A stretch of DNA of 64,000 bases, from the NCBI RefSeq assembly GCF_009914755.1, contig NC_060928.1. One strand, given 5' to 3'. The translations under genes were made by a program, and so were the position numbers. Position 1 is the stretch's first letter, and every line of letters starts with the position of its first letter. The notes beneath the pieces were generated by a model. The model had not been told where the DNA came from. It did no database searches and worked only from the letters and a program-made list of their open reading frames with translations. Positions 45,497-47,148 of the stretch are shown here, one piece after another. Source of the stretch: the human T2T-CHM13v2.0 reference genome, Homo sapiens.

Positions 45497-47148
45497 ACAA
45501 GATATTTACAATTTCTCTCCCAGAGTTTACATTTTAACAAATTAAAAAAATTAATAAAAATATTGCATACTGAACAGTGGCATAGAATAATCCAGGATAT
45601 CGGGCCTCGTTTGGAAAGTGAGGTAGGAGTGTGAGGAAATTTCCAAGTGGTAATATTATACCTAAACTTAGTAGGAGTTGATTAGGGGAATGTAGAAGGA
45701 GGGAAATAATCCAGATGAGGAAATCATATATGTAAAGTTCAGGAAACTACAAAGAGAATGAACAATTGGAGAATGGAAAGGTAAATTTTCTGGCATAAGG
45801 AAAGCAAGAAATAAAGTATTCTATCTGAGGTTGAAATGGGAGTCAGTGGCCAGGCCATTTATTGCTGCATGGGCCATATTAAAAATATGGTTCTCTATAG
45901 TAAGGAATAATGGCAGCCAAAGAAACCCAACTTTGTGTTTTGCAAGTATCTGTTCATCTGCATTGTGGAGGGCAAATTTAAAAATCCAGAACAAATGCAG
46001 GTTACAAAGAAGATGAACCCAAAACTCCAGATAAAAAAGGAATTAGAGAGAGAGAGAAAAGACAACAATATTAAAGTGCCAAGATTCTAAATAAGATGAA
46101 GATGGAGACATTTAGAAATAGGAGACATTTAAATATTAATTACTTATAGACAATGTGATATAGTGATGATAACAGAAGGGAAATTGAGGCTGACTGAACA
46201 TTAAGTGGAAGGTGAGAAAACTGAACTAGTAAGAATAAACAAATGTGAAGACAAGTATTTCTATGTATGGACAGAAAAAAGATAAAGTAATAGGGTTGGA
46301 GGAGATAGGTTCAGGGACAGATGAGCATTTTTATATGTTGTTGGGAAGATGCCTATATAAAAAAGGGTGAAGGCTGGGCGCAGTGGATCACGCCAGTAAT
46401 CCCAGCACTTTGGGAAGCCAAGGCAGACGGATCACCTGAGGTTGGGAGTTCGAGACCAGCCTGACCAACATGGAGACATCCGAACTCTACTAAAAATACA
46501 AAATTAGCCAGGCGTGGTGGTGCATGCCTGTAATCCCAGCTACTGCAGAGGCTGAGGCAGGAGAATCACTTGAACCCAGGAGGCAGAGGTTGCGGTGAGC
46601 CGAGATCCTGCCATTGCACTGCACTCCAGCCTGTGCAACAACAACAACAAAAAAGGTGAAGACACAGGGATGAAGCAGATAATAAAAAATAGATTCCTGA
46701 GAAGGTGAGGTGGGATGGAATCACAGCACAGTTGACTTCAACTGGAAAGACGGATACCTCCTCTATTGCTGCATGCAGCAATGAATGGCCTGGCCGCTGA
46801 CTCCCATTTCAACCTCAGATAGAATACTTTATTTCTTGCTTTCCTTATGCCAGAAAATTTACCTTTCCATTCTCCAATTGTTCATTCTCTTTGTAGTTTC
46901 CTGAACTTTACATATATGATTTCCTCATCTGGATTATTTCCCTCCTCCTACATTCCCCTAATTAACTCCTACTAAGTTTGGGTATAATATTACCACTTGG
47001 AGCTTTCCTTACACTCCTACCTCACTTTCTAAACTAGGCCTGATATCCTGGATTATTCTATGCCACTGTTCAGTATGCAATATTTTTATTAATATTTTTC
47101 TAATTTGTTAAAATGTACACTCTGGGAGATAAATTGTAAATATCTTGT
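45497..47148. repeat. Long inverted repeat: arms 45497-45871 and 46772-47148, ~900-bp spacer
   Basis: Manual alignment gives about 15 differences over ~375 bp. Confidence 0.97.
46372..46652 (+). mobile_element. AluSp, 3' end replaced by (CAA)n
   Basis: CCTGAGGTTGGGAGTTCGAGACCAGCCTGACCAACATGGAG diagnostic; TSD AAAAAAGG(G)TGAAG. Confidence 0.95.

What the first reader, a model, noticed from the sequence alone, without database searches (positions are those of the whole stretch)
45497..47148. Young ~375-bp inverted duplication of ancient L2 sequence
Seen: 46772-47148 is the reverse complement of 45497-45871, with about 15 differences by manual alignment (~96% identity) and a long identical stretch. 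Established: L2 has been inactive for roughly 100 My and independent copies are far more diverged, so these are not two separate insertions, and repeat masking would hide this event. Inference: a local, primate-era inverted copy event. If the region is transcribed on either strand, the arms would form a near-perfect non-Alu dsRNA stem with a ~900-nt loop (ADAR substrate, possible small-RNA source or splicing modulator). At DNA level the arms could mediate inversion of the spacer.
Basis: partly seen in the sequence, partly recalled or inferred. Interest (0 to 1): 0.8.

Follow-up and report, generated by a model that had tools for sequence, protein, structure and literature searches.

The report
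Inverted self-copy inside an old repeat
A 375-base piece of a very old, decayed mobile element was copied backwards and pasted about 0.9 kb away inside the same element, a real but ordinary footprint of a DNA copying error with no sign of function.

Summary
45497-45871 and 46772-47148 are reverse complements with 14 substitutions and one 2-nt indel (96%). The spacer is 900 nt and holds an Alu. These are the only two copies found in the genome.

Profiles built only from other genomic copies of the same old dispersed repeat show which arm is the source. The repeat looks like L2, but that name rests on recall and was not tested.
- The left arm sits in its native context; the repeat runs on across both of its edges.
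- The right arm, plus 3 nt (46769-47148, about 380 nt), is an insertion that interrupts a more distant part of the same element.

The inner junction has two features. A 5-nt match (TATTG) links target and donor. A perfect 18-nt palindrome is centred on CATG.

The best reading is a local template-switch event, pattern 3-2-1-4 of the four-point model, during replication or break repair. It is unusually long for that class.

Divergence of 3.7% suggests an ape or Old World primate age, but this was not tested across species. An RNA would form a stem of about 370 bp, yet no transcript is annotated here. About 2,000 comparable long, highly paired inverted repeats are already catalogued in human, mostly intergenic LINE pairs.

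Verdict: real, mechanistically neat, probably neutral, low interest.

The parts
45422..47300 (-). One old, decayed dispersed-repeat copy (L2-like by recall). Its conserved terminus is at 45422 and it runs rightwards. It is interrupted by an Alu and by the inverted self-copy. The right limit is approximate.
   Evidence: A whole-element profile built from other genomic copies hits 45418-45636 (hmm 36-300, E 6e-11), 46719-46769 (hmm 1002-1040, E 8e-4) and 47211-47276 (hmm 1113-1178, E 3e-12). All three hits are on + and collinear. The terminal 25-nt motif has 158 exact genomic hits against 0 for the control. The strand is given by recall of the L2 3' end.
45497..45871 (+). Left arm: the source copy, in its native context.
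   Evidence: The family profile aligns 45422-45748 without a break across the outer edge at 45497 (E 8.6e-33). Locus L034 aligns across the inner edge at 45871 as far as 45937 with high posterior values.
45860..45871 (+). Donor-side junction motif, TATTG-CTG-CATG. The same 12 nt recur in the same orientation at 46764-46775.
   Evidence: Read.
45872..46768 (.). Spacer: more of the old element, in its ancestral orientation, carrying an Alu.
46372..46649 (+). Alu insertion in the spacer, flanked by an 11-12-nt target-site duplication (46360-46371 and 46650-46660).
   Evidence: Sequence; sub-threshold SRP/Alu hits at 46373-46614; Alu family D1.
46764..46768 (+). TATTG: the last bases of the target. 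They probably belong to the old element itself and match donor 45860-45864 (microhomology).
   Evidence: Three family profiles align to the window up to 46768, 46770 and 46769.
46765..46782 (.). Perfect 18-nt palindrome at the inner junction, centred on CATG.
   Evidence: Sequence.
46769..46771 (+). CTG: 3 nt of the insert that copy donor 45865-45867 in direct orientation, before the turn-round.
   Evidence: Sequence; inference.
46772..47148 (-). Right arm: the derived, inverted copy.
   Evidence: It is 96% identical to the left arm. It matches the family profile only on the minus strand and only inside the arm (hmm 90-217, E 9e-8). It lies in a 442-nt window gap where the family profiles have 73-77 columns.
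47149..47316 (+). Continuation of the old element beyond the insert. It includes the conserved family motif at 47220-47240.
   Evidence: The 21-nt motif has 90 genomic hits with at most 1 mismatch, against 3 for the control. Profile hits cover 47210-47288 (E 4e-15).

Best explanation
A single local DNA-level event copied 375 nt of an old, dead dispersed repeat (L2-like) and inserted the copy in reverse orientation into another part of the same repeat. The insertion site is about 0.9 kb downstream, or 0.6 kb if the Alu arrived later. The most likely mechanism is template switching of a growing DNA strand during replication or break repair, in four steps. (1) A strand whose 3' end lay at the target (TATTG, 46764-46768) re-annealed by 4-5 nt of microhomology at 45860-45864. 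(2) It copied 7 nt forwards (CTGCATG). (3) It turned round at the self-complementary CATG onto the opposite strand and copied back to 45497. (4) It returned to the original template at 47149. The same product arises if the steps are read in the opposite direction of synthesis. In the four-point notation the order of points is 3-2-1-4. Since then the arms have drifted apart to 3.7%. The structure is most likely neutral. Shown: the inverted copy, its uniqueness in the genome, which arm is the source, and the insertion site. Inferred: the order of switches, the microhomology, the date and the neutrality.
For: Arms and sharp edges. Only two copies in the genome. Left arm is native: the family profile runs from the element terminus through 45497, and L034 aligns across 45871. 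Right arm is an insertion: two independently seeded family profiles place 46695-46768 at hmm 734-815 and 47210-47288 at hmm 892-975. That is a gap of 77 columns against 442 nt in the window, or 62 nt once the 380-nt insert is removed. A third, whole-element profile gives the same result: 73 columns against 442 nt. Locus L064 carries the terminal and internal motifs 1083 nt apart. In the window they are 1798 nt apart, which becomes about 1129 nt after subtracting the Alu with its target duplication (289 nt) and the insert (380 nt). The copy lacks the roughly 75 terminal nt of the element, so it is not an ordinary insertion of that element. The junction shows 12 nt shared in direct orientation and a perfect 18-nt palindrome. 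The substitution spectrum, 9 transitions to 5 transversions, looks like evolutionary decay and not a technical artefact. According to passages I read in PMC7954356, pattern 3-2-1-4 is one of the two majority patterns that create single inverted repeats in great-ape genomes.
Against: No ancestral or outgroup sequence was available, so the 'empty site' is inferred from paralogous copies of a repeat that is about 55-65% identical. The spacer-side profile hits are weak (E 2e-4, 1.6e-3, 8e-4). The middle of the element (45750-46366) was not matched by any profile. The microhomology rests on a 5-nt alignment in which the family consensus differs from the window at 2 of 5 positions. The jump distance (0.6-0.9 kb) and copied tract (375 nt) exceed the 'tens to hundreds of nucleotides' of the short-range class. 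The differences between the arms are clustered (P about 0.007), which a simple copy-then-drift history does not predict.
Confidence: 0.8

Rival explanations
1. A break-repair variant. A double-stranded fragment of the donor with a hairpin-capped end was opened off-centre, which leaves palindromic extra bases, and was captured by end-joining at a nearby break. No replicative template switching was involved.
For: The perfect 18-nt palindrome at the inner junction is what off-centre opening of a hairpin would leave. No clear microhomology is seen at the outer junction 47148/47149.
Against: The donor is still intact, so a copy and not an excised fragment must have been used. The first 5 nt of the palindrome align to the old element's own sequence at the target, which fits microhomology better than added bases. 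The two models cannot be separated from one sequence.
Confidence: 0.12
2. Two independent insertions of the old element in opposite orientation, later homogenised by arm-to-arm gene conversion.
For: Differences are clustered: the inner 175 nt differ by 1.1% and the outer 200 nt by 6%. Gene conversion could produce this.
Against: The right arm lacks the element's terminal ~75 nt, which copies of this family carry. Similarity ends abruptly at both edges with no weaker homology beyond. A conversion tract would have to coincide exactly with the whole shared region.
Confidence: 0.03
3. An L1-mediated retrocopy of a local antisense transcript that happened to land 0.9 kb from its source.
For: An A-rich run (A, T, then 8 A) directly follows the outer end of the copy at 47149-47158.
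Against: I found no target-site duplication by eye around 46764-46771 and 47159 onwards. The A-rich run can be placed against columns of the old element. Landing within 1 kb of the source by chance is about a one-in-a-million event for a dispersed process.
Confidence: 0.03
4. An assembly artefact, such as a fold-back chimera.
For: None found.
Against: The arms differ at 14 sites plus an indel, with a transition-biased spectrum. A technical fold-back would give identical arms.
Confidence: 0.01

Closest known systems
Short-range template-switch mutations, four-point model (Walker et al. 2021, PMC7954356; passages read)
   Same: A stretch of nearby sequence is copied as its reverse complement and creates an inverted repeat. 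The point order 3-2-1-4 is one of the two majority patterns. The event appears as one large insertion.
   Different: The copied tract here is 375 nt and the jump 0.6-0.9 kb, whereas that class is described as within tens to hundreds of nucleotides. An extra 3-7-nt direct-orientation piece at the junction implies one more switch than the four points.
Template switching between leading and lagging strands at short inverted repeats (ODIRA, yeast; PMC10766183; abstract and outline read) and microhomology-mediated break-induced replication (known to me by recall; listed in the references of PMC7954356)
   Same: A turn-round of synthesis at a very short palindrome (CATG here) gives an inverted junction without a loop. 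Microhomology marks a switch point.
   Different: Those models describe kilobase-to-megabase amplifications or triplications. This is a 380-nt insertion with a prompt return to the original template.
Long, highly paired predicted dsRNAs of the human genome (dsRNAscan preprint, PMC11838218; section 10 read)
   Same: The stem is over 300 bp with more than 96% of bases paired (370 of 375). It forms between inverted LINE-type sequence and is intergenic. That class has 2,018 members, most of them between inverted LINE elements and 88% intergenic.
   Different: Whether this locus is in that list was not checked, because the preprint's supplements are closed. Here the arms are two parts of one copy event, not two separate young insertions.
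Inverted Alu pairs
   Same: Neighbouring inverted repeats that can form dsRNA if transcribed. Six such pairs are in this window.
   Different: Alu pairs come from independent insertions of a high-copy family and are 74-93% complementary over 124-146 nt here. This pair is unique in the genome, 375 nt long and 96% identical.

Membership tests
Template-switch inverted duplication (four-point model) | The derived fragment is the reverse complement of nearby sequence. | tested here: met
Template-switch inverted duplication (four-point model) | The ancestral sequence lacks the fragment (L->1 and 4->R are contiguous). | tested here: met
   Tested by proxy only. Profiles of paralogous copies have 73-77 columns where the window has 442 nt. 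True orthologous outgroups were not available.
Template-switch inverted duplication (four-point model) | The event is local, within tens to hundreds of nucleotides. | tested here: not met
   The jump is 897 nt (about 610 nt without the Alu and its target duplication) and the tract is 375 nt. The kind of event is the same, but the scale is larger than the 'short-range' definition read.
Template-switch inverted duplication (four-point model) | Microhomology at switch points (typical of the class, not obligatory). | tested here: inconclusive
   TATTG is shared by target and donor, and CATG is a palindrome at the turn. Nothing is evident at 47148/47149.
L2 LINE fragment | Significant match to the L2 consensus or model. 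| not testable with these tools
No repeat library was available. A literature search for the terminal motif string found 0 papers.
L2 LINE fragment | An old dispersed family with a shared terminus and variable truncation at the other end. | tested here: met
   The terminal motif has 158 exact hits against 0 for the control. All 30 of 30 fetched loci match the profile from the motif onwards, with ends ranging from about 30 to 580 nt further in. Of the 6 end-anchored L034 alignments, 5 start at 55-61. Pairwise identity to the left arm is 54-68%. The loci were chosen by that motif, so the shared start is partly built in.
L2 LINE fragment | Reverse-transcriptase remnant further 5'. | tested here: inconclusive
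   No relevant Pfam hit in 20 of 20 stop-free minus-strand frames between 48140 and 52390. Decay, or truncation of this copy, would explain that.
DNA transposon with long terminal inverted repeats | Inverted ends at the element's termini, target-site duplication, and other copies in the genome. | tested here: not met
   No other copy was found. Both arms lie inside one collinear older element. No flanking duplication is seen.
L1-mediated retrocopy | Poly(A) tail plus target-site duplication. | tested here: not met
   A 10-nt A-rich run is present, but I saw no target-site duplication by eye.
Long highly paired dsRNA (>300 bp, >96% paired) | Stem length and pairing. | tested here: met
   In the plus-strand RNA 370 of 375 bases pair and the longest unbroken helix is 175 bp. 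In the minus-strand RNA 363 of 377 pair.
Long highly paired dsRNA (>300 bp, >96% paired) | Both arms lie on one transcript. | not testable with these tools
   No gene is annotated in the window (hub annotation). No expression data were available.

The most novel reading that the evidence does not exclude
The locus may be a hominoid-born long-hairpin RNA gene in the making. If it is transcribed in some tissue, for example germline or brain, from an unannotated or read-through transcript, the roughly 370-bp near-perfect stem would be an unusually strong non-Alu substrate for ADAR or Dicer, or a ligand for MDA5. A second, evidence-driven variant concerns the mutation pattern. The differences cluster in the outer 200 nt, and at 5 of 6 polarisable sites the derived base is on the copy. 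This could be a germline record of error-prone repair synthesis and not later drift.
Probability: 0.06. Interest if true: 0.55.

Novelty: new member of a known kind. Interest (0 to 1): 0.25.

Why it matters
Repeat masking would hide this event, so it is a clean natural example of how template switching builds long hairpin-forming sequence from dead repeat DNA. Both junctions are preserved well enough to read the steps. It extends the size range normally considered for such events. Otherwise the locus is intergenic with no annotated transcript, and about 2,000 comparable long, highly paired inverted repeats are already counted in the human genome. Its practical importance is therefore small unless expression or a polymorphic inversion is found.

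Tried and rejected
- A single-sequence nhmmer search of the element's pieces against the rest of the 64-kb window found nothing.
- Word-based genome searches with 45380-46366, 45405-45560 and 45872-46366 found only the terminal motif of the family or the query itself.
- The first profile, seeded from L034, reached only to 45604 in the window.
- Locus L042 aligned pairwise to only about 80 nt.
Stop-free frames gave no reverse-transcriptase hit.
- Rfam at E <= 1 found only Alu-type, sub-threshold matches and nothing in the arms.
- The literature search for the terminal motif string found 0 papers. A second literature query was malformed and I did not repeat it.
- Polarising the arm differences with the family profile gave 5 left against 1 right among 6 usable sites. 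This is not significant and may be biased, because the profile columns were first defined by the left arm.
- Four readings were rejected: a young repeat family, a DNA transposon with long inverted ends, independent insertions, and an assembly artefact. The reasons are given under the rival explanations and the membership tests.

Full report
**Observation.** The inverted repeat is real and lies at the stated coordinates.
- The repeat finder reports 45544-45871 / 46772-47099 (328 nt, 96% complementary, 900 nt apart) and the outer continuation 45497-45551 / 47094-47148.
- A global alignment of the two arms has 377 columns, with 14 substitutions (9 transitions, 5 transversions) and one 2-nt indel.
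- With 100 nt of flank on each side, similarity ends abruptly at both edges.
- In the whole assembly the left arm finds only itself and the right arm (2 candidates, both scored; word-based, so distant copies are missed).
- Among 7 inverted pairs of at least 100 nt within 5 kb in the window, the other 6 fall in masked Alu-like stretches at 74-93%.

**What the arms are made of.**
- The sequence just left of the left arm carries a 25-nt motif with 158 exact matches in the genome, against 0 for the reversed control.
- A 21-nt motif right of the right arm (47220-47240) has 90 matches with at most 1 mismatch, against 3 for the control.
- I built profiles only from those other genomic copies (30 and 29 loci). 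All 30 motif-selected loci match from the motif onwards, over lengths of about 30 to 580 nt. That is the pattern of an old element with a fixed end and variable truncation at the other end.
- Local pairwise identity of the longest copies to the left arm is 54-68%, hardly above shuffled controls.
I could not test the name: no repeat library was available, a paper search for the motif found 0 papers, and 20 stop-free frames further along gave no reverse-transcriptase hit.

**Which arm is the source.**
- The end-anchored family profile aligns to 45422-45748 in one piece, straight across the outer edge of the left arm at 45497 (E 8.6e-33). It matches the right arm only on the minus strand and only inside the arm (hmm 90-217, E 9e-8).
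- Locus L034 aligns across the inner edge at 45871 as far as 45937.
- The left arm therefore sits in its native context.
- For the right arm, two profiles seeded from different loci (L055, L073) both hit 46695-46768 and 47210-47288 on the plus strand. The gap between the hits is 77 profile columns (L055 profile; 71 columns in the L073 profile) against 442 nt in the window.
- A third profile spanning the whole element (seed L064) hits 45418-45636, 46719-46769 and 47211-47276, all collinear, with 73 columns against 442 nt at the same place.
- L064 has the two motifs 1083 nt apart. The window has 1798 nt, or about 1129 nt after subtracting the Alu with its target duplication (289 nt, read) and a 380-nt insert.
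- So 46769-47148 is an insertion into a more distant part of the same old element. The spacer is still in its ancestral orientation.
- Caveats: the spacer-side hits are weak (E 2e-4 to 1.6e-3). No profile matched 45750-46366.

**Junctions and mechanism (inference).**
- The family profiles follow the window up to 46768-46770, that is through TATTG.
- The donor reads TATTG-CTG-CATG at 45860-45871. The junction reads TATTG-CTG-CATG and then runs straight into the reverse complement of the arm. This makes a perfect 18-nt palindrome at 46765-46782.
- The simplest account has four steps:
  1. The 3' end at the target re-anneals by 4-5 nt at the donor.
  2. It copies 7 nt forwards.
  3. It turns round at the self-complementary CATG onto the other strand and copies 375 nt back to 45497.
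  4. It returns to the target at 47149.
- Read in the other direction of synthesis, the same switches give the same product.
- In the four-point notation this is order 3-2-1-4. The passages I read in PMC7954356 name that order as one of the two majority patterns creating single inverted repeats in great apes.
- The scale is larger than that paper's 'tens to hundreds of nucleotides'.
- Turn-round at short inverted repeats is the core of the yeast ODIRA model (PMC10766183, abstract).
- A hairpin-capture repair variant cannot be excluded.

**Age.**
- The p-distance is 0.037. The Poisson 95% range on the count gives 0.020-0.063.
- At 1e-9 per site per year this is about 19 My (range 10-31). At 0.5e-9 it is twice that.
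- By recalled primate divergences the value lies between human-orangutan and human-macaque.
- The differences are clustered. Thirteen of 15 events lie in the outer 200 nt, and a 151-nt run has none (P about 0.007, a split chosen after seeing the data).
- At 5 of 6 polarisable sites the left arm keeps the family base (not significant and possibly biased).
- Gene conversion would make the event look younger than it is. Error-prone copying would make it look older. The date is therefore soft.

**Function.**
- As RNA, either strand would form a stem of about 370 bp: 370 of 375 bases paired, -640 kcal/mol, longest unbroken helix 175 bp.
- Rfam finds nothing in the arms.
- No gene is annotated in the window.
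- The dsRNAscan preprint counts 2,018 predicted human dsRNAs over 300 bp with more than 96% pairing. Most are between inverted LINE elements and 88% are intergenic (PMC11838218, section 10).
- Barak et al. report that such duplexes are depleted from transcripts (PMC7006430, passages).
- This locus fits that known, mostly silent class.

**Verdict.** This is a real, uniquely paired inverted self-copy with readable junctions. It is a new member of a known kind, is probably neutral, and is of low interest unless expression or a polymorphic inversion is found.

Noticed in passing
45497-45871 vs 46772-47148: Differences between the arms are clustered. Thirteen of 15 events lie in the outer 200 nt (6% divergence) and 2 in the inner 175 nt (1.1%), with a 151-nt run that has no difference (P about 0.007). 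At 5 of 6 polarisable sites the derived base is on the right arm.
   Followed up: partly
46360-46660: The Alu in the spacer (46372 to about 46649) has an 11-12-nt target-site duplication (46360-46371 and 46650-46660). The masked interval 46367-46697 is wider than the Alu itself.
   Followed up: partly
47340-47474 and 49557-49691: Two inverted Alus are 93% complementary over 135 nt and lie 2082 nt apart. This is the next-best hairpin-forming pair in the window.
   Followed up: no
45306-45356: Two adjacent, nearly identical units of about 24 nt: a small local tandem duplication just left of the old element's terminus (read).
   Followed up: no
47149-47158: An A-rich run (A, T, then 8 A) directly follows the outer end of the inverted copy. 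It could be decayed element sequence or a tail. No target-site duplication accompanies it.
   Followed up: partly
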